A stretch of DNA of 64,000 nucleotides, from assembly GCA_024679065.1 (NCBI GenBank), contig JAGIQG010000004.1:62496001-62560000 (forward strand). The letters run 5' to 3'. The notes under the pieces are model-generated. The model was not told the origin of the DNA. It made no database searches and worked only from the letters and a program-made list of their open reading frames with translations. The position numbers and the translations under genes are program-made. Positions 9,741-60,997 of the stretch are shown here, in pieces (the stretch's first letter is position 1; each line of letters starts with the position of its first letter). The DNA is from Sphyrna mokarran (Eukaryota).

Positions 9741-9950
9741 CGGGGGGAGGGGGAGGGGTGGTGGGAGGGTAGAGACAGGACAGACCGACTGCATGGACGA
9801 GAATAGACCGTCGACATAAATGGGCCACGTATGGACCCCTAATTAACTATCTCTATCCACACAGCGGAAATCGAATTAACCATCTTCATTTCTAGGACGG
9901 AGGGGGACGACATGTCAGCCATGGGTCTAATATATGTATATATGTATATA

Positions 9951-12900
9951 CAAAGAACAAAGAACAAAACGGCACGGGAAAGAGGCCCTTCGGCCCAACG
10001 AGCCCGCGCCGCCACCCCGATGCTCCCACTTCCACCCGCGATCCCTGTCCATGTTTATAGATATATGGATCAAAATGCAAATTTGAGACAATTTAGGGAG
10101 AATTTGTTTTGCCAATTAGCCTAAGAGCACATCTTTGGGATGTGCGATGAAACCGTAGCACCCGGAGAAAACCCACGCAAGCACGGGGAAAATGCACAAA
10201 CTCCTACAGACGCAGGCCCAAATCCATGTGTCTGCACAGCACAGCGATAGTCACTGAGCTGTCGTGTTGCCCATCAAATGGTCCAGGTCAAGGGTACACT
10301 AACGACGTGAAGCACTAGGATACTCTCGAAAAAAAATCCAAGAGCAGCCCTCTCACGACCCACCGCGTATATGCCCCTCATTAGACAACAAGGTGGACCA
10401 AAGCACCTGTAGGATAAAAACAAGTACATCAATATTATCATCTATTTACACATTTCCTAGGAACTCCCAAGGCTCATGATCCCTATTTTAAATCAGTTTT
10501 CTATACCCCTCCATTCCCATTCTGTTCATGTGCCCATCTAAGTATTTCTTGAATAACTCCAGAGTACCTGTCTCCACCACTTTACTTGGCAGCGCATTCT
10601 ATACCCATATCACCCTCTGTGTGAAAAAACTCTCTCTAGCATCCAAATTATACATTACCCCCCTCACCCTAAGCCCGTGACCCTTCGTGCTATTCGAGTC
10701 CATCCTAGGAAAAAGCTTAAGCCTGTTTACTTTATCTATACCCCTCATAATCTTGTACACCTCTATTAGATCTCCTCTAAGTCTATGTCTTAGTAAGGAA
10801 AACAGTCCCAATTTGCCTAACCTCTCCTCGTAACTCAGACCTTCCATACCAGGTAGCATCCTGGTAAACCTTCCCTGCACTCTCTCCAGAGTCTCCACAT
10901 CCTTCTGGTAGTAGGGAGACCAGAACTGGATGCAGTATAGAACATAGAACATAGAACAATACAGCACAGAACAGGCCCCTCGGCCCCCGATGTTGCGCCG
11001 ACCAAAATAAAAAGCAATGCCCCTCCTAACTAAACCATTCCCTTCTCATCCATATACTCATCAACCAACCTCTTAAACGCCACCAAACTTGGCGCATCCA
11101 CAACAGCTGCAGGCAGGGCATTCCACTCCCTAATCACTCTTTGAGTAAAGAACCTACCTCTGATATCCGTCCTATAACTCATACCCCTTAATTTAAAGTT
11201 GTGTCCCCTCGTGCTAGCTTTCTCCATCCTAGGAAAAAGGCTATCACTGTCCACCCTATCTAAACCTCTAATCATCTTATATGCTTCAATAAGATCCCCT
11301 CTTAGCCGCCTCCTTTCTAACGAAAACAACCTCAAATCCTTCAACCTCTCTTCATAGGACCTGCCCTCCATACCAGGCAACATCCTGGTAAACCTCCTCT
11401 GTACCCTCTCCAATGCCTCCACATCTTTCTTATAATGTGGCGACCAGAACTGCACACAATACTCCAAGTGCGGCCGCACTAGAGTTTTGTACAGCTGCAA
11501 CATGATGCTGCGGCTCCTAAATTCAATCCCCCTACCAATAAAAGCTAAGACTCCATATGCCTTCTTAACAACTTTATCCACTTGACTGCCTACTTTCAGG
11601 GATCTATTGACACATACACCAAGATCCTTCTGTTCCTCAACACTATTAAGAGCCCTACCATTAGCCCTATACTCTACACATTTATTGTTCCTGCCAAAGT
11701 GCATTCCAAATGTATTCCAAGTGTATTCCAAATGAGGTCTAACCAACGTTTTATACAACTGCAAAATTAAAGGCCAGCACTTGTACTCTGTACCCCTTCC
11801 TATAAAAGCTAACATACTATATGCTTTCTTCACAACCTTCTCCACATGCTCTGTCACCTTCAGAGACTTGTTCACCTGCACCCTCAGACCCCTCTGCATT
11901 TCTATACTCTTAATAGCTCTATCCTTTATCATATACTCCCCCCAAAATTCTTTCTCCCGAAATGCATCATCTCACATTTATCAGGATTGAATTCCATCTG
12001 CCATCTGTCTGCCCAAGCTACCAGCCTATCTATGTCCTGCTGCATCACCTGATAATGCTCCTCACTATCTGCAAGTCCAGCCATCTTTGTATCGTCTGCA
12101 AACTTGCTGATCACTCCCTCGTCCAATTCATTGATATATATTACAAATAGAAAGGGTCCCAGTACCGAGCTCTGCGGCACACCACTAGTGACCGACCTCC
12201 AGCTAGAGAAACACCCTTCCACTATTACTCTCTGTCTCCTATTACCAAGCCAGTTACTTATTCATCTAGCTACCTGTCTTTGTATCCCATTAGCCTTGAC
12301 CTTCTCAAATAACCTCCCATGAGGGACTTTGTCAAAGCCTTACTAAAATCCATATAGACAACATTAACGGCTTGCCCTTCGTCCACCGTTTTCGTCACCT
12401 CCTCAAAAAATCCTACCAGATTCGTAAGGCACGACCTCCCCTTAACAAATCCATGCTGCGTATCACTAATCAGATCGCAACACTCTAAGTGCCTATATAT
12501 CCTATCTCTAAGAATCCCCTCCACCAGCTACCCTACCTGTGATGTCAAACTCACTGGCCTATAATTCCCAGAGATATCCCTACTACGCTTTTTAAACAAC
12601 GGTACTACATTATCTATTCTCCAGTTCTCTCGACCTCACTTGTGTCCAAGGAAGAGACAAAGATTTGCGTCGGAGGGCCAGCAATTTCACCTCGCACCTC
12701 CCTAAGCAGCCTGCGATAAATAGCATCAAACCCCGGAGATTTATCACTTTTAATGCTCTAACACTTTCTCCCTCAGTATGGATATTTCCCTCAACTGGTC
12801 CACAGCTCCCTCAGAGACAGGAGCTGTCAACAAGTCCCTCTCCTTAGTGAATGTCGACGCAAAGTATTCATTCAGGATCTCCGCCATTCCCTCGGGCTCT

Positions 12901-13045
12901 GAGCACAGTTCCCCTCCTCTGTCCCTAAGAGGCCCGATTTTTCCTCTAACTACCCTTTTATTCCCAACATAGGGGTAAAAAGCCTTTGGATTTCCCTTAA
13001 TCCTATCCGCCAAAATCATTTCTTGCCCCCTTTTTGCCCTACTCA
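9951..13045 (-). mobile_element. CR1-B LINE, 5'-truncated, long 3'UTR, interrupted by a CR1-A copy
   Basis: RT fragments ([28 protein letters not shown]), ORF2 end near 10495, and a 3'UTR with V-SINE core and (gttcttt)n tail. Confidence 0.92.
10938..11705 (-). mobile_element. CR1-A LINE 3' fragment nested in CR1-B
   Basis: Near-identical to 22180-22945, with a (gttctat)n tail. Host sequence gcagtat|tccaaatgagg resumes after it. Confidence 0.95.
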
Positions 13046-14429
13046 GGATAGAACAAATTTCTGGCAATGCCACGATGACAGATAAGTTGAGCTGGTAGTT
13101 GCAAATCTCATTTGATCGGTATTGACTTAGGCGCTTGCCATTATCTCTTTAAATCTTTTGAATCTCTTCAAAGTGTGCACACCATCCGGGAAACAGCAAT
13201 GTTTCTCGTAGGCAAACGCAGCGCTCGTCAGGCTCCCTTCAGTCTATGCTAATTGTGGAGAACACCTCTCTCTCTCCATGTCGCTTACATTCCGGTCCCA
13301 GCGGCGCCTGGTTCGCTGTTGTCGGGAATAAGCGCTCAGATCAAATAAGAGGCAACACCATTTTAAGCCCGTCCATCGGCGCCCAACATAATTTCAGCAA
13401 GCACCAGTTTTCTTTTCGGGAGAGCTGCCCCAAGTTTCTTGGATGATGTTCGACACTGTGGAGGAGAAGAGCGCTACCCTCTTTGCAAATGTCGTGCCAT
13501 GACTAGTTCATGTTCTAGCATAAGCCTGTGACAACAAGGCAGAAGAATTAAGCTACATTAACAGGCGGACCTTACAAATGCCACAGGTAGACGAATGCCC
13601 TACTCCGACTATGGTTAGTCCTGCCTGCTGTAAGCCTCACTCACATCGGTAACCTCTGACATTTCACCTTAAATACTTAAAAACATCAAATATACGCACT
13701 CCATTCCTCTTTTTCAGGCTCCTGTCAAGAAATCCCCATCAAAATACCCTAAAGGTTCGGCGCAGTGCTCACACGTGTATGCCATCATCTGCCTACCTTA
13801 CTATCCTTGCCATACCGCAATATGATAATACCGTTGTTGTCTCTCCATCAGCTAAGGTTGCCGCAGCTTCAAGGAACAGAGGAACGGGTCTGTGCTTCGC
13901 GTCTCCACTCCCTTTGAGGAAAGGGGCCTGGGAATAGTGGGGTAGGGCCCAACGAGAGATGTGGTAAGACGTTAGTTCGGAATGGCCCGCTCAATTTTAG
14001 ACCTTTATTCACTGTCTGAAGTGAATGTATCATTTCCCAGAAACTTGATATTCGCCAATGGTAACACCATGTCTTTACTTTTCCAGGATCTCCATCAGTG
14101 ACAAGAACCATCTGATGTTTTTGTCCCGTTAAACCCGTGCTATGGCTATCTGGTGATCGAACTCTAGACTCCGGATTTTGAAGAATTTGAAGTTAATGGG
14201 CGTTTAAACTAAGCACGGCTATGGTGATACTTAACAATAGAAAGCTGTGATGTCAGATTTTGATCCATTAAAATAGAGGCAAAATATCCAGGAGGGCGTT
14301 GGAGGTGAACTGTGCTTGTAGAAGGACAGTGTGAACAATGGCGATATAAGATGCTGAGATAGGCAGATTGAATGAGCCAAAAACTATAAGACTCGGCATT
14401 TAGCTTGGCTGGCAATCAAATTAAATTGT

Positions 14430-17392: not shown

Positions 17393-20300
17393 TACAAAGA
17401 GCAAAGAAGAACAAAGAACAAAACAGCACGGGAAACAGGCCCGTTGGCCTCACGAACCCGCGCCGCCACCTCGATGCTCCCCCTTCTACCCATAATCCCT
17501 GTCTATGTTTATAGATCTATGCATTGGAACCAAATTTGCGACAATTTAGAGAGAATTTGTTCTGCCAATGAGCCTAAGAACGCATCTTTGGGATGTGGAG
17601 GAAATCGGAGTGCCCAGAGAAAACCCACGCAAGCAAACTCCCACAGACATGGGCACAAATCCATGTATCTGCACAGCACAGCGATAGTCACTGAGCTGCC
17701 GTGTTGCCCATCAAATGGTCAAGCGTACACTAACGACGTGAAGCACTAGGATATTCTTGATAAATTCAAGAGCAGCCCTCTCACAACCCATCGCGTGTAT
17801 GCCCCTTGTTAGACAACAAGGCGGACCGAAGTACCTGGAGGATAACACAAACACATCATTGGCAATTTACACAATTCTTAGGGAAATCCCAAGTCTCCTG
17901 ATCCCCATTTTAAATCAGTCTGCTATATCCCTCCATTCCCATTCTGTTCATGTGCCCATCTAAGTACCTCTTAAATAAATCCAGAGTGCCTGCCTCCACC
18001 ACTTTACTTGGCAGCACGTTCCATACCCCCACCGCCCTCTGTGTGAAAAAACTCCCTCTAGCATCCAAATTATACCTTACCCCCCTCACCCTAAGCCCGT
18101 GATACTTCTCACTATTTGAGTCCATCCTAGGAAAAAGCTGAACCCTGTACTCTACCTATACCCCTCATAATCTTGTACACCTCTATTAGATCTCCTCTGA
18201 GTCTATGTTTTCTAAGGAAAACAGCCCCAATTTGCCTAACCTCTCCCCGTAACTCAAACCTTCCATACCAGGCAGCATCCTAGTAAACTTCCTCTGCACT
18301 CTCTCCACAGTCTCCACGCCCTTCCGTTAGTAAGGCGACCAGAACGGGATGCAGTATTCCAAATGAGGTCTAACCAACGTTTTATACAACTGCAACATTA
18401 AAGGCCAGCTCTTGTACTCCATACTCCTTCCTATAAAGGTTAACATGCCATATGCTTTCTTCACAACCTTCTCCACCTTCTCTGCCACCTTCAGAGATTT
18501 GTGCGCCTGCAACCCCAGATCCCTCTGCGTTTCTATACTCTTAATATGTCTATCCTTTATCATATACCTCCCCCTTACATTCTTTCTCCTGAAATGCATC
18601 ACCTCACATTTATCAGGATTGAATTCCATCTGCCATCTATCTGCCCAAGCTACCAGCCTATCTATGTCTTGCTGTATCGCCTGACAATGCTGCTCACTAT
18701 CTGCAAGTCCAGCCATCTTTGTATCGTCTGCAAATTTGATGATCACTCCACTTACTCCCTCTTCCAAGTCATTTATATATATTACAAATAGAGGAGGTCC
18801 CAGTACCGAGCCCTGCGACACACCACTAGTGACCAACTTCCAGCTAGAAAAACACCCTTCCACTATTACTCTCTGTCTCCTATTACAAAGCCAGATACTT
18901 CTCCATCTAGCTACCTGAAATCCATTAGCCTTGACCTTTTCAACTAACCTCCCGTGAGGGACTTTGTCAAACGCCTTACTGAAATCCATATAGACGACAT
19001 CAATGGCTCGCCCTTCGTCCACCGTTTTCGTCACCTCCTCAAAAAATTCTATCAGATTTGTAAGGCACGACCTCCCCTTAACAAAGCCATGCTGTGTATC
19101 TGTAATCAGATCGCAACGTTCTTAGATCCTATACGTCCTGTCTCTAACAATCCCCTCGAACAGCTTCGCTACCACTGATGTCAAACTCACCGGCCTATAA
19201 TTACCAGGGTTATCCCTACTACCCTTTTTAAACAACGGTACAACATTAGCTATTCTCCAGTCCTCTCGACCTCACCTGTGTCCAAAGAAGAGACAAAGAT
19301 TTGCGTCAGCGAGCCAGCAATTTCACCTCGCGCCTCCCTAAGCAGCCTGGGATAAATGCCATCAGGCCCCAGAGATTTATCACTTTTAATGTTACCTAGA
19401 AGCTCTAACACTTCCTCCCTCGGTATGGATATTTCCCTCAACTGGTCTACATCTCCCTCAGTGACAGGGCCGGTCTACAAGCCCTTCTCGTTCGCAAATA
19501 CTGACGCAAAATATTCATTCAGGATCTCTCCCACTCCCTCGGGCTCTAAGCACAGTTCTCCTCCTCTGTCCCTAAGAGGTCCTATTTTTCCTCTCACCAC
19601 CCTTTTATTCCTAACATAGGAGTAAAACGCCTTTGGATTTTCCTTAATTCTATCTGCTAAAGCCATTTCATGCCCCCTTTTTGTCCACCTAACTCCCCGT
19701 TTGACCTCACTCCTACTCTCTCTATATTCCCCCAACGCTCTCTCCGTTCCCAGCGGCGTTGACTTCACATAAGCCTCTCTGTTCTTCCGAACCAAGTCCT
19801 CAATATCCCTAGTAATGCACGGCTCTCTAATCCTACCTTTGCCATCTTTCCTCTCAGCTCGCACGTATCTTTCTTGCAACATTTTCAGTATTCCCTTGTA
19901 AGAATCCCACACTCCAAGCATGGATTTACCCTCGAACAACCGTTCCCAATCAGTTTCCAAATGTTCCTGCCTAATCCGACTGTAGCTTAGCCTTCCTCCA
20001 ATTCAGCACCCTCTCCCTCTGGGAATAATATCCTTTTCCAACTGTATCCTAAAATAGGCAGAATTGTGGTCACTGTTAGCCACATGTACCCCTACTACAA
20101 CTTCAACCACCTGCCCTGGCTCATTACTCAGAACTAAATCCAATAAAGCCTCCTCTCTAGTTGGACTAGCTACATACTGCTCCAATGATCCTTCCAGTAC
20201 ACAAATTCCTCCCCGTTCGAATCTCCAGCTCTAGGTACCTTCCAATCCACCCCAGTGAGATTAAAATCTCCCAGTATAACAACTTTGTTCTTTCTGCACC

Positions 20301-20830
20301 TGTCCAAAATGTCTTTACGTATGCGTTCTTGCACTGCCCGTGGGCTGTTGAGTAGCCTATAATACACCCCTAGCATAGTTATTGCTCCCTTCCTATTCCT
20401 CAACACTACCCACAGTGACTGAAATCCTAACTCCTCTGTATTGTCTTCTGTCTGCACTGCTGTGATACTCTCTCCAACTAACAACGACATTCCCCCATCT
20501 CTTCTGGATCTTCTTCTGTCAGGCCTGAAAGATTTATACCCAGAAATATTCAGCTGCCACTGCTCGCCTTCCTTTAACCACGTCTCCGTTACTGCAAACG
20601 CATCTAAGTTCCTTGCAAACATTAAGGCCCTAAGTTCATCTGTTTTTCCTGTTATGCTCCTCGCATTGAAACAGACTCACTCCAGACGTCCAAGCACCCT
20701 CGGAACCTCCTTCTTCCTGGTGTATTTCCTCTCATCCAAGCTTACACAGTCTCCCATCTCGCTCCCTACCGAGCTATCGGTGTCATCCCCCCACCCCCAC
20801 CCTTGCCCCCTCCATATAAATTAAATAAAC
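17393..20830 (-). mobile_element. CR1-B-type LINE with near-complete degenerate ORF2, in receptor intron 5
   Basis: APE endonuclease (FNARSI, AVTETWL, LGDFN, SDHN) and RT ORFs 18327-19034 etc., plus the long 3'UTR module. Confidence 0.92.
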
Positions 20831-22170: not shown

Positions 22171-24745
22171 GAGAACTTAGAACATAGAACATAGAACAAT
22201 ACAGCACAGAACAGGCCCTTCGGCCTTCGATGTTGTGCCGACCAAAATAAAAAGCAATGCCCCTCCTAACTAAACCATTCCCTTCTCATCCATATACTTA
22301 TCAACTAACCTCTTAAACGCCACCAAACTTGGCGCATCTACAACAGCTGCAGGCAGGGCATTCCACTCCCTAATCACTCTTTGAGTAAAGAACCTACCTC
22401 TGATATCCGTCCTATAACTCATACCCCTTAATTTAAAGCTGTGTCCCCTCGTGCTAGCTTTCTCCATCCTAGGAAAAAGGCTATCACTGTCCACCCTATC
22501 TAAACCTCTAATCATCTTATATGCTTCAATAAGATCCCCCTTAGCCGCCTCCTTTCTAACGAAAACAACCTCAAATCCTTCAACCTCTCTTCATAGGACC
22601 TGCCCTCCATACCAGGCAACATCCTGGTAAACCTCCTCTGTACCCTCTCCAATGCCTCCACATCTTTCTTATAATGTGGCGACCAGAACTGCACACAATA
22701 CTCCAAGTGCGGCCGCACTAGAGTTTTGTACAGCTGCAACATGATGCTGCGGCTCCTAAATTCAATCCCCCTACCAATAAAAGCTAAGACTCCATATGCC
22801 TTCTTAACAACTTTATCCACTTGACTGCCTACTTTCAGGGATCTATTGACACATACACCAAGATCCTTCTGTTCCTCAACACTATTAAGAGCCCTACCAT
22901 TAGCCCTATACTCTACACATTTATTGTTCCTGCCAAAGTGCATTACCTCACACTTTTCCACATTAAACTCCATTTGCCACCTCTCGGCCCAGCTCTGCAA
23001 CTTGTCCAAGTCACTCTGTAAACTAAAACACCCCTCTTCACTATCTACCACACCACCAACTTTAGTATCATCTGCAAATTTACTGATCCATCCCTCAATA
23101 CCCTCATCCAGATCATTTATAAAAATTACAAACAGCAGGGGCCCCAAAACAGACCCCTGAGGCACACCACTCGTCACCGAACTCCACGATGAATATCTCC
23201 CATCAACCACCACCCTCTGTCTTCTATCTGCCAGCCAATTCCTAATCCAATTAGCTAAATCACCCTCTATTCCACACATCTGCATTTTCTGTAGAAGTCT
23301 TCCATGGGCCACCTTATCAAACGCCTTACTAAAGTCCATATATACTACATCAACCGCCTTACCCCCATCCACCTCTCTGGTCACTTTCTCAAAAAACTCA
23401 ATGAGGTTAGTAAGGCATGACCTACCCTTCACGAAACCATGCTGACTATCCCCAATCAATTCATTTCTCTCTAAATAACTATAAATCCTATCCCTAATAA
23501 TTCTCTCCAATACCTTGCCCACCACAGAAGTAAGACTCACTGGCCTATAATTCCCAGGAAGGTCTCTCTTCCCCTTCTTAAACAATGGGACCACATTCGC
23601 CATCCTCCAGTCCTCCGGAACCACACCCGTAACCAACGAGGACCTGAAGATCAGAGCCAGAGGCTCTGCAATCTCCTCTCTTGCCTCCCAGAGAATCCTA
23701 GGGTAAATCCCGTCCGGCCCAGGGGACTTATCCAACTTCAAACCCTCGAGAATTTCTAACACATCCTCCCTATCTACTACAATACTCCCCAATTTGCAAC
23801 CCTGTACCTCAGTGCTCTCCACAGCTACATTTCCAGCACTCTGCGTGAATACCGAAGAGAAATATTTATTCAGTGCCTCACCAATCTCTTCAGGCTCCAC
23901 GCACAACTTCCCACTGCTGTCTATGACTGGCCCTAATCTTGCCCTAACCAATCTTCTATTCTTAACATATCGAAAGAAAGCTTTAGGATTCTCCTTAATC
24001 CTATCAGCCAACATCTTCTCGTGTCCCCTCTTAGCTCTCCTCAATTCACTTTTTACCTCCTTCCTAGCTAATCTATAGCTATCCATTGCACTACCTGAGC
24101 CTTCAAGCCTCATCCTGACATAAGCCTCCTTTTTCTTCTTAACCAGCAAATCAACTCTTTTCGTACACCAAGGCTCTCTTACTCGTCCATTTCCTCCCTG
24201 CCTGACAGGGACATACTTATCAAGGACTCGCAGCAGCTGCTCCTTGAATAAGCACCACATTCCAGATGTTCCCAGTCCCTGTAGTTCCCTAGTCCAATCT
24301 ATGCACCCTAATTCTCTCCTGATGGCCTCATAATTACCCTTCCCCCAGCTATAACTACAGCCCCCAGCTTCATGCCTATCCCTGTCCATCACTAAGGTGA
24401 ACGTAACCGAATTGTGGTCACTATCACCAAAATGTTCACTAACTTCCAAGCCTAACACCTGGTCTGGCTCATTGCCCAGCACCAAATCCAATGTAGCCTC
24501 ACCTCTAGTTGGCCTATCTACATACTGAGTCAAAAAACCTTCCTGCACACTCTGTACGAAAACTGACCCCTCTAACGAGCTAGAGCTATAGCTATTCCAA
24601 TCAATATTAGCAAAGTTAAAGTCCCCATCACAATTACCCTACTACTTTCACTCCTAATCAGAATTGACTTCGCAATCCTTTCCTCAACCTCTCTAGAACT
24701 ATTAGGAGGTCTGTAAAAGACTCCCAACAGGGTGACCTCTCCTCC
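22171..24745 (-). mobile_element. Young CR1-A LINE, 5'-truncated within the endonuclease
   Basis: 678-aa ORF 22512-24548 with intact RT motifs (FADD). Flanking ORF pieces are offset by single frameshifts. (gttctat)n tail. Confidence 0.97.
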
Positions 24746-26337: not shown

Positions 26338-26640
26338 CTCATAGAATGCTACAGTCGTAGAATCCCTACAGTACAGAAGGAAGCCATGGAGCCTGCGTAG
26401 ACAAAATTCGCACGCAGGCTCTATCCCCACAACTCCACGTATTTACGCTTCTAAGGCCCCCGACACCAAGGCATAACTTAGCATGATTCACCTTACACAC
26501 ACACCTTTAGAGTATAGGAGGGGACCGGAGAACGATGAGGAAACCCGCTTTTTCGGAAGCAGAATGTGCAAACATTCATCCAAAGCCCGAATTGAACTCC
26601 GTCCCTCGTACTATAAGACAGTAGTACTAACCCCTGAGCA
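26338..26640 (-). mobile_element. Free V-SINE (HE1-like), degenerate
   Basis: Minus strand shows a tRNA head (gctcaggggttagtactactg; B-box ggagttcaattc), V core (tttgcacattct..gcgggtttcctc..ctccggtcccctcc) and CR1-type tail. Confidence 0.7.
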
Positions 26641-27151
26641 AGCTTATTGGAGAAACATCAGGAATGTTGAATAAGATGTCCATTGAATGGGCACATTCAC
26701 ATTCATGACTATACAAAACGCAATCGTTTCAAACTTATTGTGTCAACCAAAAAGCAATTAAAATGTCGTTCCAAGTTTCATTGCACCACACGCAGAATAT
26801 GTCCAAAAATCGCTTGAGCTTATCTTTCAAGGAAAGATTTATTACCGTCTGTTCACTCATCTTATCGCAATTATCTTTGATTCTACTTTTATAGCATTAC
26901 TAATGAGCAACAACGTTATAAATAAGGAATCAAGTTGTTCTAGTTTGTATCTGCAACTATATGAAAAGACTCAATTGTTTGATTCCACAGTTCAGGGATC
27001 CATCATTTTTCAGTGCCTCAATTGAACATCAATTCTGTATTATATTCTGAGTTGCCAAATTATGCGGCTAATCTGATTTATGGGAGCAATACTGAAGATT
27101 CAAACCCGTTAGTGATAAGGTTGCATGATGCAGTCTACTGCATATCCTATT

Positions 27152-27910: not shown

Positions 27911-28062
27911 TAAAACCAACAAATTTGGAAGCCTTCAACCAAATAGATTGATCAATATATGAGCATCAAGCTTCTCTAATAATAATTTCCGATGCATTAT
28001 CGTTTTTCATGCATTTTTGTGAAAGGCGAAAGGCTAAACAATCATCGTTCATATAAGATTAC

Positions 28063-28365: not shown

Positions 28366-30745
28366 CTAAATTCAAGATAACAATACACATAAATTGTGAA
28401 ATTAAGCTTCTGCTCAAAAAAATGTAACTTTATCAATTATGCACAGCTACTTCACGGCAGCAAATTGATGCAATAGTCAGTATTTTCATACTGTTGCGTG
28501 GTGTTTTTCATAGAAGAAACAACAAAACAGCACGGGAAACAGGCCCTTCGGCCCAACGAGCCCGCATCACCACCCCGATGTTCCCACCTCTACCCGCGAT
28601 CCCTGTCCATGCTTATAGATCTATGGATTAAAAACCAACTTTGAGACAATTTAGGGAGAATTTGTTTTGACAATTAGCCTAAGAACACATCTTTGGAATG
28701 TTGGAGGAAACCGGAGCACCCGGAGAAAACCCACGCAAGCACGGGAGAATGCGCAAACTCCCGCAGATACAGGCCCAAATCCATGTATCTGCACAGCACA
28801 GCGATAGTCACTGAGCTGTCGTGTTGCCCATCAAATGGTCCAGGTCAAGCGTACACTAACGTCGTGAAGCACTAGGATACTCTTGAAAAAAAAATCCAAG
28901 AGCAACCCTCTCATGACCCATCGCGTGTATGCCCCTCGTTAGACGACAAGGTAGACCAAAGCACTGCAGGATAAAAACAAGTCCATCAATATCATCATCT
29001 ATTTACACTTCCCAGGAACTCCCAAGGCTCATGATCCCTATTTTAAATCAGTTTTATATACCCTTCATTCCCATTCCTTTCACGTTCCCATCTAAGTATC
29101 CCTTAAATAATTCCAAAGTGTCTGCTTCCACCATCTTACTTGGCAGCGCATTCCACACCCCCACCACCCTCTATGTGAGAAAACTCCCTCTAGCATCGAA
29201 ATTATACCTTACCAACCTCACCCTAAGCCCGTGACCTCTCGTGCTATTCGAGCCCACCCTAGGAAAAAGCTTAACCCTGTTTACTTTATCTATACCCCTC
29301 ATAATCTTGTACACCTCTACTAGATCTCCTCTAAGTCTACGTCTTTCTATGGAAAAGAGTCCCAATTTGCCTAACCTCTCTTCGTAACTCAGACCTTCCA
29401 TACCAGGCAGCATCCTAGTAAACCTCCTCTGCACTCTCTCCAGAGTCTCCATGTCCTTCCGGTAGTAGGGCGACCAAACTGGACGCAGTATTCCAAATGA
29501 GGTCAAACCAACGTTTTATACAACTGCAACATTAAAGGCCAGCTTTTGTACTCTATTCCCCTTCTTATAAAGGCTAGCGTACTCTATGCTTTCTTCACAA
29601 CCTTCTCCACTTGCTCTGCCACCTTCAGAGACTTGTTCACCTGCACCACGAGGTCCCTCTGCGTTTCTATACTCTTAAAGGGTTTACCCTTTATCATATA
29701 CTTCCCCGGACATTGTTTCTCCCGAAATGCATCACCTCACATTTATCAGGATTGAATTCCATCTGCCATCTACCTGCCCAAGCTACCAGCCTATCTATGT
29801 CCTGCTGCATCACCTTACAATGCTCCTCACTATCCGCAAGTCCAGCCATCTTTGTATTGTCTGCAAACTTGCTGATCACTCCGCTTACTCCCTCTTCCAA
29901 GTCATTTATATGTATTACAAGTAGAAGAGGTCCCAGTACCGAGCCCTGCAGCACACCACTAGTGACCAACCTCCAGCTAGAAAAACACCCTTCCACTATT
30001 ACTCTCTGTCTCCTATTACCAAGCCAGTTACTTATTCATCTAGCTACCTGTCCTTGTACCCCATTAGCCTTGATCTTTTCAACTACACTCCCATGACGGA
30101 ATTTGGCAAACGCCTTACTAAAATCGACATAGACGACATCAACGGCTCACCCTTCGTCCACCGTTTTCGTCACTTACTCAAAAAATTCTACCAGATTCGT
30201 AAGGCATGACCTCCACTTAACAAATCCATGCTGTGTATACCTAATCAGATTGCAACGCTGTAAGTGCATATACATCCTATCTCTAAGAATCCCCTCCAAA
30301 AACTTCCTTACCACTGACGTCAAACTCACTGGCCTATAATTCCCAGGGTTATCCCTATTACCCTTTTTAAACAACAGTACAACATTAGTTATTCTCCAAT
30401 CCTCTGGGACCTCACCTGTGTCCAAGGAAGAGACAAAGATTTGCGTCAGAGAGCCAGCAATTTCACCTCGCGCCTTCCTAAGCAACCTGGGATAAATGCC
30501 ACCAGGCCCCGGAGATTTATCACTTTTAATGCTACCCAGAAGCTCTAACACTTCCTCCCTCGGTATGGATATTTACCTCAACTGTTCCACAGCTCCCTCA
30601 GAGACAGAAGCTGTCAACAAGCCCCTCTCCTTCGTGAATACCGACGCAAAGTATTCCTTCAGGATCTCCACCATTCCCTCGGGCTCTAAGCACAGATTCC
30701 CTCCTCTGTCCCTAAGAGGTCCGATTATTCCTCTAACCACCTTTT

Positions 30746-32927: not shown

Positions 32928-33224
32928 CATATACGACAACTTGCACAGCAATATCGTTCACAATCGTCCGAAGCTGAATTTTGACTGCACAGTGATATAT
33001 TCCAGCATCCGGTATGTCGACATTCAGGAGATGAAGGTACGCTCCACCTTTCATTTTCTGGAAGCGTTTTCCACTGTCCTCCTGTAAAAATCCCTTATGA
33101 CCATCTTTCCACCAGAACGCCATTGCGTTTATAACGTCGGTATGGAAAGGGAAAGGACATCGCAAGGTTACGTTTGTGAATCTGAGCGCCTTTATGGGTT
33201 CCATATCCGACGTGCCCATAGCAA
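32928..33224 (-). CDS. Exon 2, V-type Ig domain
   Basis: Acceptor ttttcttttgatag, donor G|gtgagt, 297 nt, phase 1-1. Encodes NVTLRC..FWWKDG..AYLHLLNVDIPDAGIYHCAV (B-strand Cys, C-strand Trp, DxGxYxC). Confidence 0.92.
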
Positions 33225-34777: not shown

Positions 34778-35993
34778 TGAAAAAGTGACCAAAGAGGTGG
34801 ATGGGGGTAAGGCGGTTGATGTGGTATATATGGACTTTAGTAAGGCGTTTGATAAAGTGGCCCATGGAAGACTTCTGCAGAAAATGCAGATGTATGGGAT
34901 AGAGGGTGATTTAGCTAATTGGGTTAGGAATTGGCTAGCAGATAGCAGACAGAGGGTGGTGGTTGATGGGAGATATTCATCGTGGAGTTCGGTGACAAGT
35001 GGTGTACCTCAGGGGTCTGTTTTGAGGCCCCTGCTGTTTGTAATTTTTATAAATGATCTGGATGAGGGTATTGAAGGATGGATTAGTAAATTTGCAGATG
35101 ACACTAAAGTCGGTGGAGTGGTAGATAGTGAAGAGGGGTGTTATAGTTTGCAGAGGGACTTGGACAAGTTGCAGAGCTGGGCCGAGAGGTGGCAAATGGA
35201 GTTTAATGTGGAAAAGTGTGAGGTAATGCACTTTGGCAGGAATAATAAATGTGTAGAGTATAGGGCGAATGGTAGGATTCTTAATAGTGTTGATGAACAG
35301 AGGGATCTTGGTGTATATGTGCATAGATCCCTGAAAGTAGGCAGTCAAGTCGATAAGGTTGTTAAGAAGGCATATGGAGTCTTAGCTTTTATTGGTAGGG
35401 GGATTGAATTTCGGAGCCGCAACGTCATGTTGCAACTGTACAAAACTCTAGTGCGGCCGCACTTGGAGTATTGTGTGCAGTTCTGGTCCCCACATTATAA
35501 GAAAGATGTGGAGGCATTGGAGAGGGTACAGAGGAGGTTTACCAGGATGTTGCCTGGTATGGAGGGCAGGTCTTATGAAGAGAGGCTGAGGGATTTGAGG
35601 TTGTTCTCGTTAGAAAGGAGGCGGCTAAGAGGGGACCTTATTGAAACATATAAGATGATTAGAGGTTTAGATAGGGTGGACAGTGATAGCCTTTTTCCTA
35701 GGATGGAGAAAGCTAGCACGAGGGGACACAGCTTTAAATTAAGGGGTGATAGTTATAGGACGGATATCAGAGGCAGGTTCTTTACCCAAAGGGTGGTTCG
35801 GGAGTGGAATGCCCTGCCTGCAGCGGTTGTAGATGCGCCAAGTTTGGTGGCGTTTAAGAGGTTAGTTGATAAGTATATGGAAGAGAAGGGAATGGTTTAG
35901 TTTGGAGGGGCATTGCTTTTTATATTGGTCGGCGCAACATCGAAGGCCGAAGGGCCTGTCCTGTGCTGTAATGCTCTGTGTTCTATGTTCTAT
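34778..35993 (+). mobile_element. Young CR1-A 3' part with uninterrupted 371-aa ORF2 C-terminus
   Basis: ORF 34785-35900, ~90-nt 3'UTR, tgaaa shared at both junctions. Confidence 0.96.
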
Positions 35994-41707: not shown

Positions 41708-43185
41708 TGGAGGTTGGTCACTAGTGGTGTGCCGCAGGGCTCGGTACTGGGACTTCTTCTATTTGTAATATATATAAATGACTTGGAAGAGGGAGTACGT
41801 GGAGTGATCAGCAAATTTGCAGATGATACAAAGATGGCTGGATTTGCGGATAGTGAGGAGCATTGTCACTATCTGGTGACGCAGCAGGACACAGATAGGC
41901 TGATAGCTTGGGCAGACAGGTGGCAGATAGAATTCAATCCTGAAAAACGTGAGGTGATGCATTTCGGGAGAAACAATGTACGGGGGAGGTATATGATAAA
42001 GGGTAGACCTATTAAGAGTATAGAAACGCAGAGGGGCCTGGGAGTGCAGGCGAACAAGTCTCTGAAGGTGGCAGAGCAAGTGGAGAAAGTCGTGAAGAAA
42101 GCATATAGTATGTCAGCCTTTATAGGAAGGGGAATAGAATGACCTTTAATGTTGCATTTGTAGAAAACGTTGGTTAGACCTCATTTGGAATACTGCGTCC
42201 AGTTCTGGTTGCCTTACTACCGGAAGGGCGTGGAGACTCTGGAGAGAGTGCAAAGGAGGTTTACCAGGATGCTGCCTGGTATGGAAGGTCTGAGTTACGA
42301 AGACAGGTTAGGCAAATTGGGACTGTTTTCCTTAGAAAGACGTAGACTTAGGGGATATCTAATAGAGGTGTACAAGATTATGAGGGGTATAGACAGAGTA
42401 AACAGGGTTAAGCTCTTTCCTAGGATGGACTCGAATAGCATGAGAGGTCACGGGCTTACGGTGAGGGTGGTAAGGTATAATTTGGATGCTAGAGGGAGTT
42501 TTTTCACGCAGAGGGTGGTAGGGGTATGGCATGATCTGCCAAGTAAAGTGGTGGATGCAGGTACTCTGGAGTTGTTTAGGAAATACTTAGATGGGCACAT
42601 GGACAGAATGGGAATGGAGGGGTATATAAAACTGATTTAAAATAGGGATCATGAGCCTTGGGAGTTCCTGGGAAGTTTCTAAATAGATGATGATATTGAT
42701 GTACTTGTTTTTATCCTACAGGTGCTTTGGTCCACCTTGTTGTCTAACGAGGGGCATATACGTGATAGGTCGTGAGAAGGCTGCTCTTGGATTTTTTTTT
42801 CGAGAATATCCTAGTGCTTCACGTCATTAGTGTACGTTTGACCTGGACTATTTGATGGGCAATACTACAGCTCAATGATTATAGCTGTGCTGTGCAGATA
42901 CATGGATTTGGGCCTGTGTCTGTGGGAGTTTGCACATTCTCCCCATGCTTGCGTGGGTTTTCTCCGGGTGCTCCGGTTCCCTCCCATATCCCAAAGATGT
43001 GCTCTTAGGCTAACTGGCAAAACAAATTCTCCCTAAATTGCCTCAAATTTGTTTTTTAATCCATAGATGTATAAACATACACAGGGATCGCGGGTAGAGG
43101 TGGGAACATCAGGGTGGTGGCGCGGGCTCGTTGGGCCGAAGGGCCTGTTTCCCGTGCTGTTTTGTTCTTTGTTCTTTGTTCTTTA
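41708..43185 (+). mobile_element. CR1-B 3' part with complete long 3'UTR
   Basis: ORFs 41714-42142 and 42170-42640. 3'UTR 42641-43185 has an acceptor, hairpins, V-SINE and (gttcttt)n tail. Confidence 0.95.
42857..43185 (+). mobile_element. V-SINE-derived segment embedded as the terminal part of the CR1-B 3'UTR
   Basis: Decayed tRNA head (family consensus gggcaacacgacagctcagtgactatcgctg), V core tgtctgtgggagtttgcacattctcccc..gcgtgggttttctccgggtgctccggtt..ctccca..tcccaaagatgtgc..taggctaa, and tail stem-loop tgggccgaagggcctg. Confidence 0.85.
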
Positions 43186-44594
43186 TGCACATTACCTGAT
43201 GAAAATCCTGGAAGTTCCTCCTTTACTGCATTGTGGGTCAAACCACATCACATGGAATGCAGCGATCCAAGAAGGCAGCGAACCGCAATCTTTTCAAGAG
43301 CAATTAGGTACGGTCAATTAATACTAGCCAGTCAGCGACGCCCATGTCCCACGAATAAATAAAAATAAGCGACTGCATTAATGAATTGAGTCATATTTGG
43401 TGCTACGCAGGCCAGTCCGGCTAACCAATTACGCGCCGTACATTCATGTCGTTACGGAATGCATTGGAGTATTGTGAAGAATAAAAATAGTGATCCATTC
43501 AGCTGGACTGTACTTCTTGTGGAACATAAAATACTAATGAAGTACTAATGAGGTACTAATGAAGTCTTTAATTTTTTAAAACTTCTTTGCTAATGACATT
43601 AAGTAAGAGGGTCTTTCATTTTATACGTTGGAGAAAGGTTTTGTAATTGTCATTAAAAGAACACGGATACCGAATTCGGACAGTGTTTTAAGGCCTATTC
43701 GTATCATCAGTCTAATATGTTAAGGAAAGCGATTAATAATTTGAGACGACTAGTAAAATGGAGACACCTGTGCGGAAATAGATGTTTTGAAAATAAAAGA
43801 TTCGCAATTGATAAATCAGAAACTTAATTTGAATTAATCCTCAGGGTGCACACGAGCGTGGTGACGAAAGATCCTTTGTGCTGAACTGAGCACACTATCT
43901 AAATATGGGCATTATAAGTGTCGAGTTTTAAAGCAGATGGCCCAAGTTTTATCAGTGTTAAAATTCTTTGTTGCCTCCTGTGTGTTTTTCGTTAGTTAAT
44001 ATCTCATTTATGCAGTCGAACTGCGTGAATATTGACATCTACCACGCAGAGTCACCACTATGGGCAGACATCCATCTGTTATCATTTCCAGATGAACGCT
44101 GTTGCCAACTGTTAAACCTTGTCATTTACACTCAACTTTGCAGAATACGTTGATAAAGGTACTTCTTCTTCACTCTGTTAGTTGTGTAATCGTCCTCAAC
44201 AAAGCAGGACAGAGAAAGAATGACAGTTGCAGCGTGCAGTATGCAGTTGCATAATGTAAAATACACCGCCAAAACGTTTGTATTGTGGTGGTAATTCTCA
44301 GATATGCAAAGAAAGCTCTATAATCTATGCACCTCATGCAGATATTATGGTTCAGATTAGAAACTCTGAACGTGTTTTGTGAGGCTCTCCTGAGTCTTGT
44401 TTTGCATCTTTAACATACAGGGATTATCACGAGATGTTTCATTCTGGGTATTATGCAAGTGAGGCACGAGAGAGCTCTTATCAAACAAAATACGTTTAAT
44501 AATTTAATCAAAATGTGCAGCAAGAAAATTATCAAGAACATCTATCAATTACAAATAAGAGCAAAACAGCCAGTATTTAATCATCGTGCTTATA

Positions 44595-46118
44595 AGAACA
44601 GAGAAGAACAAAACAGCACGGGAAACAGGCCCTTGGTCCCAACAAGCCCGCGCCGCCACCCCGATGTTCCTATCTCTACCCGTGATCCCTGTCTATGTTT
44701 ATAGATCTATGGATTAAAAACCAAATTTGAGACAATTTAGGGAGAATTTGTTTTGCCAATTAGCCTAAGAGCACATCTTTGGGATGTGAGAGGAAACCGG
44801 AGCACCCGGAGAAAACCCACGCAAGCACGGGGAGAATGTGCAAACTCCCACAGACACAGGCCCAAATCCATGTATCTGCACAGCACAGCGATAGTCACTG
44901 AGCTGTCGTATTGACCATCAAGTGGTCCAGGTCAAGCATACACTAACGACAAAGCACTAGGATACTCTAGAAAAAAAATCCAAGAGCAGCCCTTTCACGA
45001 CCCATCGCGTGTATGCCCCTTGTTAGACAACAAGGTGGACCAAAGCACCTGTAGGATAAAAACAAATACATCAATATTATCATCTATTTACACACTTCCC
45101 AGGGACTCCCAAGGCTCATGATCCCCATTTTAAATCAGTTTTATATACCCCTCCATTCCCATTCTGTTCATGTGCCCATCTAAGTAATTCTTGAGTAACT
45201 CTAGAGTGCCTGCCTCCACCACTTTACTTGGCAGCGCATTCCATTCCCCCTCCACCCTCTGCGTGAAAAAAACTCCCTCTAGCATCCAAATTACACCTCA
45301 CTCCCCTCACTCTGAGCCCGTGACCCCTCGTGTTATTCGAGTCCATCCTGGGAAAAAGCTTAACTCTGTTTACTCTATGTATACCCCTCATAATCTTGTA
45401 CTCCTCTATTAGATCTCCTCTAAGTCTACGTCTTTCTAAGGAAAACAGTCCCAATTTGCCTAACGTCTCCTCGTAACTCAAACCTTCCATACCAGGACAG
45501 CATCCTGGTAAACATCCTCTGCACTCTCTCCAGAGTCTCCACGTCCTTCCGGTAGTAAGGCGACCAGAACTGGATGCAGTATTCCAAATGAGGTCTAACC
45601 AACGTTTTATACAACTGCAACATTAAAGACTAGCTCTTCTACTCTATACCCCTTCCTATAAAGGCTAGCATACGATATGTTTTCTTCACAATCTTCTGCC
45701 ACCTTCAAAGACTTGTGCACCTGCAGCTCCAGCTCCCTCTGCGTTTCTATACTCTTAATAGGTCTATATTTATCATATACTACCCCTCTTCATTCTTTCT
45801 CCCAAAATGCATCACCTCACATTTATCAGCATTGAATTCCATCTGCCATCTATCTGCCCAAGCTATCAGCCTATCTGTGTCCTGCTGCATCGTCTGACAA
45901 TGCTCCTCACGATCTGCAAGTCCAGCCACCTTTGTATCATCTGCAAACTTGCTGATCACTCCACTTGCTCCCTCTTCCAAGTCATTTATATATATTATAA
46001 ATAGAAGAGGTCCCAGTATCGAGCCCTGAAGCACACCACTAGTGACCGACCTCCAGCTAGAGAAACACCCTCCCACTATTACTCTCTGTTTCCTATTACC
46101 AAGCCAGTTTCTTATCAT
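44595..46118 (-). mobile_element. CR1-B 3' part
   Basis: RT C-terminal ORFs 45224-46118 and the same 3'UTR module; cttata on both flanks. Confidence 0.94.
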
Positions 46119-47514
46119 TATTACTTATCATTATTACTTATATGTAATAATGTTCCAATCAAAACCAAAATCCAATTAAATCCTTCGAACAGAATCTCAC
46201 GTGATACTAGAATCCAGTTCCCTGGGTTGAATTTTAATGTCAAATAACCTTGAAAACTCAGAGCAACCTGCTTTCGCATTAGCTCCGCAAAACACCAAAC
46301 CCCAGATTAATTACTGCAACATAACTACAAACCTTTCTTTCATCAAACTGGTAAAATTTCCAAAGCAAAACAGAGAGAGAAAGAAACTCCTTTTCCAGAG
46401 TGCTTCTAAGACTGCTTCTAACACTGCAATCAGGCCCACCCATAGTTTTTTTTTCCCACCAAACTATAAAATCACCTAAGGCCGTGAGCAAGAAATCATT
46501 AAAAAAACTCTTAAAGACAGACTAACCTCACACAGTAAAAATGTAAATGTTCTTGCCATTGCAAAAACAGGGCAATATTCGCTTAGCCATTCTGTAATAG
46601 TAACTACTGATCGAATATCCCGTCATCAACCTTCTGTTATGGCTGATCATTAGGACCTTGGGCAGAAAAGTTACAATGTAATAAAAAAAACAGTACAATC
46701 ACTGAACACGTTATTCACGCTGGCATACCTTTCGCTTTTTTTTCAAACTTTGCTGCACTTTTTTTTTTCTAAATTGATTATATAAGTTGCTTTCTTAATT
46801 GGAGAGCTGATAGCGCAGTGGGAATCCAACTCGCATCGATTATTCAGAGATTTGGGGTAATGGTTTGGGAACATTTGTTAAATGTCATTGTGGGAACTAC
46901 TGGAAATTTAATTAACTCAAAATGATTTGCAATTGAAGGCTAGTCTTATTAACGTTGATCATAATTTTAAAAAAAAATGTTTTGCACACACTCCCTGGAT
47001 CACGAAAGGTTTCCGGGAAGTCGTTCTGCCATTTTTGCATTGTCTAACATACACTGGGAGAAATATTATTAGTCACTAATTGCCTTCTCGAATACCAAAC
47101 TAAAGCACTTGAGGCATGCGGAGTACAGTTTTATAACGTACAACACGCTGCCAAAATATCTGTGTGGTAGCGTTAAGTCTCAGTAATGCGAATTCAGTTC
47201 AAGAAGAATTACGGAGAGGTATGGGTTTTCGACAATGTAAACCACATCACAACCCCATGAATTAAGATAAATAAAAAAACTGTTGGCGTACTGATTCGAC
47301 ACCACTAAATAATAAAAAAATGAATTCGTATCAGGTCCATCATCTTGTCGTTCTGATACAAGTGCCATCCATATTATGTTTTCCATTGGTGATTGCATAT
47401 ATCCACTTTAAAGACAGGTAAATACAGTAGGCGGATTTTAATTTCTGGTAGTAAATAAATCGCATTTCAAACCCACATGCTAATTACACAGAAAGAAACT
47501 CGTAAAGCATTTTC

Positions 47515-50500: not shown

Positions 50501-50515
50501 ATGTTCTATGTTCTA
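47515..50515 (+). mobile_element. CR1-A (5'-truncated) interrupted by an antisense CR1-A
   Basis: ORF 47602-48522 stops at AVDVV and resumes as [11 protein letters not shown] at ~49347. Confidence 0.95.
48519..49337 (-). mobile_element. CR1-A 3' fragment nested antisense in CR1-A
   Basis: (atagaac)n array at 48519 and ORF2 C-terminus on the minus strand. Confidence 0.95.
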
Positions 50516-53160: not shown

Positions 53161-53164
53161 CAAC

Positions 53165-53885
53165 AAACAAAGAGAAAAGAACAATACAGCACAGGAAACA
53201 GGCCCTTCGGCTCAAGGATCCCGCGCCGCCATTTTAACATTATGAGTGCCCTCCTCTACTTATGAACTTTGTCTATACTGTTAGGGAAGAGTGAGGGAAG
53301 ACTACTTTAGGGACAATTTGTTACATCAATCAGCTTAAGAGCATCTTTTTGGGATGTGGAAAGAAACCGCGTCACCCGGAGAAAACCCATGTAATCATGG
53401 AAAGAATACACAAACTCCCGCAGACACCGGCCCAAATCCATTTATCTGCACAGCAAACAGTGATAGTCACTGAGCTGTCGTGTTGCCCGTCAGCTGTGGT
53501 CCAGTTTAAGCACACACTAACAATGTGAAGCACCAGGCATATCTCGAAGCAACATTCAAGAGCAGCCCTCGCACGACCCACCGCGTGTGTCCCTTGTTGG
53601 TCAACAAGGCGAACCGAATCAACTGTGAAGTGAAAGAAAAGACATCAGTAAACATGCTACCTGACACCCCCTCCTCCCTCCCACAGAGAACTATCTGGCC
53701 TCCCTCACACAAGAGAATGATCAGCCATCGCCATCACCACAGAATGTTTGTGCCTCCCCCCACCAGATGATTTGGCTTCCCCACATCAAAACATTCTGAT
53801 GTGGATATATGCCCCTTTCTTCCATCATTTTACGTAAGATTCTTGGAAAACACTGTCATCAAGTGTTTCAGATGCTATATGCAGC
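53165..53885 (-). mobile_element. Diverged CR1 (CR1-C) 3' end carrying the same acceptor/hairpin/V-SINE module
   Basis: 53330-53645 aligns with the CR1-B module. ~53800-53880 resembles an ORF2 end (..MMEEKG). Sequence on both sides of the module differs from CR1-B. Confidence 0.75.
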
Positions 53886-60525: not shown

Positions 60526-60663
60526 ACAGCGATAGTCACTGAGCTGTCGTGTTGCCCATCAAATGGTCCAGGTCAAGCGTACACTAACGACGTAAAGCAC
60601 TAGGATACTCTCGAAAAATCCAAGAGCAGCCCTCTCACGACCCATCGCGTGTCGACAACAAGG
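60526..60663 (-). repeat. Solo internal fragment of the CR1-B 3'UTR module
   Basis: Near-identical to 10241-10393 but lacks the V core, tail and ORF2. Confidence 0.9.
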
Positions 60664-60997
60664 ATCAGCTTCCCACATTGATACAAAACTCACAATTCAT
60701 TTTATTCTCCCTCTTTTTAGATCTCAATTATTTTTTTATTTAAGCATTTACATTAATCCAATCGTAATTAGTCAAGTTTCTACTGAAAATAACTTTGCGC
60801 TTGAAGATATGAAATGCTTTGAACTTGTCTTGGGGAAAAGTATGGACAAATTGGCTTGGATTTTCAAAATCTTCCGAACTGTCCTGGCTTGAGACAACTC
60901 ACACCCCTTTAATCTATGACTATCCCTCTCTCCACTCGCATTATCTGCACCTATGATGGCTTGATTACCCAAGTGTCCGTCTATATGTATTCATATA

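What the first reader, a model, noticed from the sequence alone, without database searches (positions are those of the whole stretch)
42641..43185. A CR1 LINE family that has absorbed a V-SINE as its 3' end
Seen: five CR1-B copies (9951, 17393, 28513, 43185, 44595 ends) share a ~545-nt 3'UTR, versus ~90 nt in CR1-A. Its last ~330 nt are a tRNA-like head, a V-SINE core and a CR1-type stem-loop tail, at the same position in every copy. The unit therefore amplified as one element. The head's A box has decayed (cagctcagtga) and no B box is visible, whereas the free V-SINE at 26338-26640 keeps one. A possible relic of the old LINE stem-loop (cgatgggtcgtgagagggctg) lies upstream. Established: V-SINEs normally borrow tails from CR1/L2 LINEs. 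Inference: here the flow ran the other way, and the conserved V domain has been retained in an autonomous LINE mRNA, which may point to its RNA-level function.
Basis: partly seen in the sequence, partly recalled or inferred. Interest (0 to 1): 0.8.

Follow-up and report, generated by a model that had tools for sequence, protein, structure and literature searches.

The report
LINE family that swallowed a SINE
A self-copying fish retrotransposon (a CR1 LINE) has taken a piece of its own parasite, a V-SINE, into its untranslated end and multiplied with it, which offers a way to test what the long-conserved 'V' sequence does.

Summary
The core observation holds. Five CR1-B copies carry ORF2 joined collinearly to the same 503-545-nt 3' UTR, with unrelated 3' flanks, different 5' truncations and equal decay in ORF2 and UTR, so the unit retrotransposed as one RNA. 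The V domain is real (by eye 79/93 and 80/87 identical to published V domains). A tRNA-type head remnant lacking A and B boxes lies just 5' of it, so the flow was most likely SINE to LINE.

Corrections: the 'relic stem-loop' scores no better than shuffles, and the terminal tail matches sister family CR1-A rather than the free V-SINE, so whether the tail came with the SINE is undecided.

New here: an ORF-less sister copy (53166-53660) conserves the refolded head (54/57) better than V (97/121), which weakens 'V is kept for its function'. Most likely V rides as a passenger ahead of the obligatory tail; a cis-acting RNA role stays open.

Nine literature searches found no such family, and a 2016 paper says these domains had not been found in LINEs. 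Repbase and Dfam could not be checked. Verdict: new variant of a known kind.

The parts
41708..43185 (+). CR1-B copy B4: 5'-truncated ORF2 (RT region and C-terminus) plus the long 3' UTR
42638..42640 (+). ORF2 stop codon; the C-terminus has the same length as in the nearest database relative P0001, so the ORF end is probably not the fusion junction
42641..42858 (+).
42860..42915 (+). Remnant of a tRNA-type V-SINE head: A box altered, about 20 nt including the B box missing; refolds as an 11-bp hairpin (42867-42893) and a second hairpin (42896-42921)
   Evidence: by eye vs Racla (15/27; 10 of 12 differences are transitions)
42916..43036 (+). V domain (core about 42925-43017)
   Evidence: by eye 79/93 vs Racla and 80/87 vs MER6 V for copy B5; profile hit to the free V-SINE E=5.9e-6
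43037..43110 (+). Spacer; the least conserved segment (33/64 in copy C)
43111..43185 (+). CR1-type tail: two-helix stem-loop (43118-43159, GAAG loop shared with CR1-A) and a 7-nt microsatellite
9950..13073 (-). CR1-B copy B1 (UTR 9950-10487), interrupted by a CR1-A copy at 10938-11705
17407..20676 (-). CR1-B copy B2, the longest; endonuclease and RT domains in broken frames; the most diverged copy
28509..30745 (-). CR1-B copy B3; lies in sense in the intron between two Ig-domain exons; CR1-A pieces abut its 5' end
44594..46116 (-). CR1-B copy B5
53166..53660 (-). Copy C: diverged sister (about 74%) with leader, head, V, a different spacer and tail but no ORF2; inserted in a GA-rich host repeat; possible 9-bp target duplication (8/9)
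60526..60664 (-). Fragment D: leader and first half of the head only (136/143 identical to the B consensus); no V, no tail
26338..26645 (-). Free, old V-SINE with a B-box match and a different tail; the only free copy found in the window
22178..24638 (-). CR1-A reference copy (708-aa open EN-RT frame, about 90-nt UTR), used as the unfused comparison

Best explanation
CR1-B is a CR1-type LINE lineage whose source element once gained a V-SINE-derived module (tRNA-type head, V domain, spacer) plus about 200 nt of other sequence between the ORF2 stop and the terminal CR1 stem-loop. ORF2p binds the terminal stem-loop and reverse-transcribes from it, so everything 5' of the tail is copied first and every copy carries the module at the same place. 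Inside a Pol II LINE transcript the Pol III boxes were no longer needed and were lost, and the head refolded into hairpins. The V domain is most likely carried as a passenger, obligatorily linked to the tail. SHOWN: fixed junction, equal age of ORF2 and UTR in each copy, V identity, loss of the boxes, a tail like CR1-A's. ESTABLISHED: tail recognition by ORF2p in stringent LINEs (abstract of PMC4176376, on zebrafish L2-clade LINEs; transfer to CR1 is inference). INFERRED: the direction, the route of capture (read-through from a source copy that lost its short tail into downstream intronic DNA holding a V-SINE with a compatible tail, or insertion of the cassette ahead of the LINE's own tail), and passenger status.
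For: Collinear junctions in 5 of 5 copies. No BLAST similarity among the six 3' flanks and different 5' ends rule out segmental duplication. Divergence from consensus is 94.3% identity in ORF2 and 92.4-96.1% in seven UTR segments, none different from ORF2 (Fisher p 0.19-1.0). The head remnant sits at the expected side of V, 20 nt closer than in Racla (by eye), with transition-biased differences (p about 5e-4). The two other CR1 families examined in the window have short UTRs without V, and V occurs in SINEs from cnidarians to vertebrates (PMC4824008 passages), so gain by one LINE is the parsimonious reading. The tail stem-loop pairs in 94% of cells across 12 A/B/C copies, with one A-U/G-C swap between families (4/500 shuffles). 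For passenger status: V shows no unusual fold and is more decayed than the head in C.
Against: V in B stays 85-92% identical to distant V domains while the head has changed much more (15/27 vs Racla, plus a deletion), which could mean V is under constraint. The architecture persisted across two lineages (B and C) about 25% apart. No target duplication was found for B1, B4 or B5 (B2 and B3 not tested). The co-phylogeny test was uninformative (29 informative sites with no consistent grouping). All of this rests on seven copies in one window.
Confidence: 0.65

Rival explanations
1. Same fusion, but the module is kept by selection as a cis-acting RNA element of the LINE mRNA (stability, export, RNP assembly or presentation of the tail). 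This is the first reader's reading for V; the data here point at least as much to the refolded head.
For: V is 79/93 and 80/87 identical to published V domains (by eye) while the head was remodelled. The head region folds better than shuffles (z -3.6, 1/300). Its first hairpin is the most stable 30-mer among the top-ranked windows of the B consensus (-15.2 kcal/mol) and ranks first in C. C's G-to-A change keeps a pair and its 2-nt insertion falls in the internal loop. By eye the hairpin extends an 8-bp hairpin that can be drawn in the Racla head to 11 bp, with four two-sided changes.
Against: No two-sided change among the 7 window copies (0 pairs; 435/500 shuffles). Two controls fold nearly as well: antisense ORF2 (2/300) and the CR1-A ORF2 end (3/300), among 26 tests. 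The whole B4 UTR is not unusual in a global fold (46/100). C is a single copy and could be a mosaic. Racla is a frog SINE, not the donor.
Confidence: 0.25
2. The donor was not a plain V-SINE but a pre-existing ORF-less composite element of the C type (leader, refolded head, V, tail) that moved in trans, and CR1-B captured the whole 500-nt unit. This is a different route and is compatible with either reading of function.
For: C has no ORF2, begins about 40 nt downstream of the position of B's stop codon, is bounded by host-repeat sequence on both sides and has its own spacer (33/64). All five B copies are longer than 1.4 kb.
Against: One copy only; 5' truncation of an older CR1-B relative explains it equally well. 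C has no A or B box in its head and no Rfam match, so no promoter is apparent.
Confidence: 0.25
3. The flow ran LINE to SINE: V is native to this LINE's 3' UTR and V-SINEs took it from there, in the spirit of Kojima's proposal that SINE bodies derive from LINEs.
For: Kojima 2018 shows that RTE and Vingi 5' regions gave rise to SINE bodies.
Against: A tRNA-type head remnant precedes V inside the LINE. V-SINEs reach back to cnidarians, while CR1-A and the third family in the same window lack V.
Confidence: 0.03
4. Independent SINE insertions next to LINE copies, segmental duplication, or an assembly artefact.
For: No target duplications were found for the three B copies tested.
Against: Identical junction in 5 of 5 copies, unrelated flanks, copies about 10% apart on both strands.
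Confidence: 0.01

Closest known systems
HE1 V-SINE and HER1 CR1 LINE pair of sharks and rays (Ogiwara 1999, 2002; seen only as table rows and citations in PMC3747384 and PMC4824008)
   Same: V-SINE with tRNA head and V body that shares a CR1-type tail with a partner LINE.
   Different: There the SINE is a separate Pol III element sharing only the tail; here head, V and spacer lie inside the LINE's own 3' UTR and the Pol III boxes are lost.
MER6/MER6A MITE (PMC6887750)
   Same: A V domain captured by another class of mobile element and amplified with it; its V is 80/87 identical to the one here by eye.
   Different: MER6 is a non-autonomous Mariner-type DNA element; here the carrier is a protein-coding non-LTR retrotransposon, so V is part of the RNA template.
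Ingi-3_AC and R4-1_ADi with Ceph/RTE-like segments, and RTE-1_DAn with a tRNA-like segment (Kojima 2018, PMC5786205)
   Same: LINEs holding SINE-like or tRNA-like sequence; Kojima raises LINE-SINE recombination for Ingi-3_AC.
   Different: The Ingi-3_AC and R4-1_ADi segments are short pieces in 5' UTRs that trace to RTE LINEs (the place of the RTE-1_DAn segment is not stated in what I read); none is a whole head-plus-conserved-domain module in a 3' UTR.
Alu/L1 and other RNA/L1 chimeric insertions (PMC13174262); L1 3' transduction (recalled)
   Same: SINE and LINE RNA joined by template switch, ligation or read-through.
   Different: Those are described as individual insertions; here the chimera became the source of a multi-copy family covering about 17% of this window.
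CR1-A family of the same window
   Same: EN-RT ORF2 (48-71% nucleotide identity per full 200-column block), same GAAG-loop tail fold, 7-nt microsatellite end.
   Different: About 90-nt UTR with no head or V; appears younger, since a CR1-A copy interrupts B1.

Membership tests
CR1-clade LINE | ORF2 with APE endonuclease and reverse transcriptase | tested here: met
   Pfam Exo_endo_phos (3e-10) and RVT_1 (1.8e-22) in copy B2, in broken frames
CR1-clade LINE | 3' stem-loop plus microsatellite instead of poly(A) | tested here: met
CR1-clade LINE | Frequent 5' truncation of copies | tested here: met
   B1, B3, B4 and B5 end at different points within ORF2
CR1-clade LINE | RT phylogeny places it among named CR1 references | tested here: inconclusive
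   Tree of C-terminal regions (22 rows) includes bird and bamboo-shark ORFs named only 'hypothetical' or 'reverse transcriptase'; the CR1 label for them is my knowledge; no Repbase references were available
CR1-clade LINE | ORF1 and 5' UTR promoter, current activity | not testable with these tools
   No full-length copy identified in the window; the ORF upstream of B2 had no Pfam match
V-SINE | About 80-120-bp V domain | tested here: met
   79/93 vs Racla and 80/87 vs MER6 V, counted by eye on copy B5
V-SINE | tRNA-derived head 5' of V | tested here: met
   As a remnant only: 15/27 vs Racla by eye, transition bias p about 5e-4; no ARAGORN or Rfam hit; not significant against the free SINE head alone
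V-SINE | Intact Pol III A and B boxes | tested here: not met
   No match at up to 1 mismatch in any B or C head
V-SINE | Short, non-coding, independent retroposition unit | tested here: not met
   5 of the 7 V-bearing elements are contiguous with ORF2; C is ORF-less; one is a free SINE. The module is V-SINE-derived, not a V-SINE
HE1 SINE / HER1 LINE | Sequence identity to the HE1 and HER1 consensuses | not testable with these tools

The most novel reading that the evidence does not exclude
CR1-B is the first autonomous LINE family to carry a SINE highly conserved domain, and the captured module (V and the head refolded into hairpins) works as a cis-acting RNA element that promotes retrotransposition of the LINE mRNA. 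That would show that the conserved SINE body acts at the RNA/RNP level, independent of Pol III, and would give an autonomous reporter in which to map it.
Probability: 0.25. Interest if true: 0.8.

Novelty: new variant of a known kind. Interest (0 to 1): 0.56.

Why it matters
Why SINE 'highly conserved domains' such as V persist for hundreds of millions of years is an open question. [quoted passage not shown] A multi-copy CR1 family with V in its 3' UTR is a counter-example. It shows module flow from SINE to LINE, and it gives a natural autonomous construct in which V can be deleted without touching a Pol III promoter. In practice, repeat annotators would split such copies into a LINE plus a SINE and overcount V-SINEs: in this window 5 of 7 V-bearing elements are LINE-borne.

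Tried and rejected
Relic stem-loop in the leader: not above shuffles with four tail queries.

A long-range hairpin spanning fragment D, pairing the 'relic' with the head: the fold of D is not unusual (31/200) and the alignment fold shows only 2 of 59 pairs with a two-sided change. Rejected.

The leader as a known RNA (snRNA, snoRNA, 5S, ribozyme): no credible Rfam match for B4/B5, C or B3 (best E 0.59, outside the UTRs), none at gathering score in the window, no tRNA.

Homology of the first 20 nt after the stop between CR1-A and CR1-B, which would favour insertion into the native UTR: significant in only 1 of 11 CR1-A copies. Inconclusive.

Splice-acceptor-like site at 42721: my crude score ranks C's site among 3 of 8475 AGs and B's among 30, but about 0.1 such sites are expected per UTR by chance, B2's is weak, and B3 sits in sense inside an intron of an apparently open Ig-domain gene. 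Kept as a lead only.

ORF2-UTR co-phylogeny: star-like, uninformative. Target-site duplications: none convincing for B1, B4, B5, D or the free SINE; 8/9 for C.

A weak V-profile hit at 58753-58799 (E 0.13) lies in a DDE transposase frame; treated as chance.

Looking for the cassette elsewhere: a translated frame of C found nothing, and a head motif had 0 matches in bacterial and archaeal genomes, as expected. Metagenome and viral contigs stayed unchecked, so the UTRs of the nearest ORF2 relatives are unknown.

Full report
SETTING. The window is repeat-rich vertebrate DNA. CR1-A and CR1-B each cover about 17% of it, and two Ig-domain exons lie on the minus strand. A cartilaginous-fish origin is my inference, from recall of shark repeat types and from a bamboo-shark ORF (57% identity) among the named hits to ORF2; it is not demonstrated.

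THE OBSERVATION. Five CR1-B copies align without rearrangement from the ORF2 C-terminus to a microsatellite end. Their UTRs measure 538, 503, 534, 545 and 536 nt, against about 90 nt in CR1-A. Mean pairwise identity is 86-93% in all 8 segments. Identity to the consensus is 2074/2200 in ORF2 and does not differ in any of seven UTR segments (Fisher p 0.19-1.0), so ORF2 and UTR are of equal age in these copies. The six 3' flanks (B1-B5, C) share no BLAST similarity, 5' ends differ, and copies lie on both strands. This is the pattern of independent retrotransposition of one RNA, not of duplication or repeated SINE insertion. B2 carries endonuclease and RT domains. Against this, no target duplication was found for B1, B4 or B5, and 29 informative sites gave no consistent grouping with which to test ORF2-UTR co-phylogeny.

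THE V DOMAIN AND HEAD. I compared published consensuses by eye only. Copy B5 matches the frog V-SINE Racla (printed) at 79 of 93 ungapped positions and the V domain of MER6 (printed) at 80 of 87 columns. Upstream, 15 of 27 positions match the Racla head, 10 of the 12 differences are transitions (p about 5e-4; about 0.03 for the match count after allowing 40 offsets), and the head-to-V distance is 20 nt shorter. No A- or B-box match exists in any B or C head, while the free SINE has a B-box match (patterns recalled). The free V-SINE at 26338-26645 aligns along its length to the B consensus (0/500 shuffles), but its head alone (828/2000) and its 3' part alone (329/2000) do not. ARAGORN and Rfam see nothing. 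Census: 7 V-bearing elements, of which 5 are ORF2-linked, 1 is ORF-less (C) and 1 is a free SINE.

THE TAIL AND THE 'RELIC'. The B tail profile hits all CR1-A tails but not the free SINE's tail, and the CR1-A UTR aligns to B's end far above shuffles (0/2000). Across 12 A, B and C copies the two-helix stem-loop pairs in 94% of cells, with an A-U to G-C swap between families (4/500; relatedness inflates this control). The tail may therefore be the LINE's own, or may come from a V-SINE subfamily with this tail type that the window does not show. The proposed relic near 42764 is not above chance (1403-1437 of 2000 shuffles reach its score) and lies about 125 nt from the stop, whereas the CR1-A stem starts 29-33 nt after the stop in 11 of 11 copies. 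In its favour, three of four tail queries align best at that spot, and one 30-nt window there is 93% conserved in C. The ORF2 C-terminus has the same length as in its nearest database relative (96/96 support; 19 of 120 listed hits used), so the junction probably lies after the stop. A hint that the first 20 nt after the stop are native UTR holds for 1 of 11 CR1-A copies only.

Copy C (53166-53660, minus) has leader, head, V, a different spacer and the tail, no ORF2, and sits inside a host repeat whose second copy aligns to both flanks. Against the B consensus it keeps 54/57 of the head, 97/121 of V, 33/64 of the spacer and 47/56 of the tail. Head versus V gives p=0.013, and p=0.02 after a scan correction. 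Fragment D holds only leader and half the head (136/143). The head region folds into two hairpins (z -3.6, 1/300), whereas V does not stand out (51/300). However, an antisense ORF2 control (2/300) and the CR1-A ORF2 end (3/300) fold nearly as well among 26 tests, and the window copies show no two-sided change. A splice-acceptor-like site is kept in B and C despite low identity around it; it is a post-hoc lead.

MECHANISM. Established: in stringent LINEs ORF2p binds the cognate 3' stem-loop (PMC4176376, abstract; zebrafish LINEs). Inference: anything between the stop and that stem-loop is copied first and so is present in every copy. A source CR1 copy gained the SINE module either by read-through into downstream DNA holding a V-SINE with a compatible tail, or by insertion or template switching ahead of its own tail. 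The 218-nt leader, which a Pol III SINE RNA would not contain, favours a genomic or Pol II donor. The Pol III boxes then decayed. I put the passenger reading at 0.65 and a selected cis-RNA role at 0.25; a C-type composite donor (0.25) is a question of route and compatible with either.

KNOWN AND NEW. PMC5804259 (abstract and introduction read; supplement read whole) states that no such domains had been found in LINEs. PMC5786205 (abstract and parts 1, 3, 4 of 5 read) compared all Repbase LINEs and SINEs; it reports RTE/Vingi contributions to SINE bodies, Ceph-like pieces in two LINE 5' UTRs and a tRNA-like piece in RTE-1_DAn, and in the parts I read no V in a CR1. PMC6887750 (part 1 of 5; supplement passages) describes V captured by the DNA element MER6. 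Passages only: PMC13343379 (2026 vertebrate CR1 survey; its single 'UTR' mention is a 5' UTR; supplement listed but not opened; consensuses on Zenodo not seen), PMC5499810, PMC3747384, PMC4824008 (supplement file 1 not searchable), PMC6036668, PMC13174262, PMC11481361, PMC8303610. Ogiwara 1999 and 2002 were not seen. Nine searches listed no paper describing a CR1 family with a V-SINE module in its 3' UTR. Most subscription papers, bioRxiv supplements, Repbase and Dfam were out of reach, so an existing unremarked consensus entry is quite possible.

VERDICT. Real, and more than chance: a CR1-type family with a V-SINE-derived module in its 3' UTR. It is a new variant of a known kind. Its interest lies in being a counter-example to 'no conserved SINE domain in LINEs' and a ready test system. 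The functional claim for V is unproven and partly contradicted by copy C. Interest 0.56.

Noticed in passing
window 28062-28364 and about 32926-33222, minus strand: Two open Ig-domain exons (V-type upstream, C1-set downstream) of a host gene; a V+C1 layout as in B7H6-like or SIRP-like genes (recalled). Copy B3 lies in sense in the intron between them, about 145 nt from the C1 exon's acceptor.
   Followed up: partly
window 42720-42721 (+), 53623 (-), 60498 (-): A 3' splice-acceptor-like site in the CR1-B leader, stronger in copy C; fragment D is followed by a similar pyrimidine tract sharing 10 nt with B's site although in B that site lies upstream.
   Followed up: partly
window 7403-9579, plus strand: LTR-type pol remnant with RNase H-like and integrase domains in separate frames.
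   Followed up: no
window 55041-55379 and 55945-56283: Inverted 340-bp duplication at 99% identity, within a region that may belong to a Harbinger-like DNA transposon; a DDE_Tnp_4 transposase piece lies at 58723-59121.
   Followed up: no
window 10938-11705 and 30745-31640: CR1-A copies inserted into B1 and clustered, partly inverted, at the 5' end of B3, suggesting CR1-A is the younger family.
   Followed up: partly
window 34778-35993 and 47506-50514: Rearranged CR1-A copies with internal inversions or head-to-head joins at 49340-49345 and 48521-48540.
   Followed up: no
window 14425-15808 and 60999-62222, plus strand: A third CR1 family with a short UTR and a different tail, about 66% identical to CR1-A.
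   Followed up: partly
window 42860-42879: Five of the head's differences from the published Racla V-SINE head in its first 20 nt are G-to-A changes (by eye); deaminase-type editing of the founder copy is one unexplored explanation.
   Followed up: no
window 51400-52650 and 52900-53900: Two copies of a GA-rich host repeat, one interrupted by a CR1-A copy and the other by copy C at about the same place, hinting at a favoured insertion target.
   Followed up: partly
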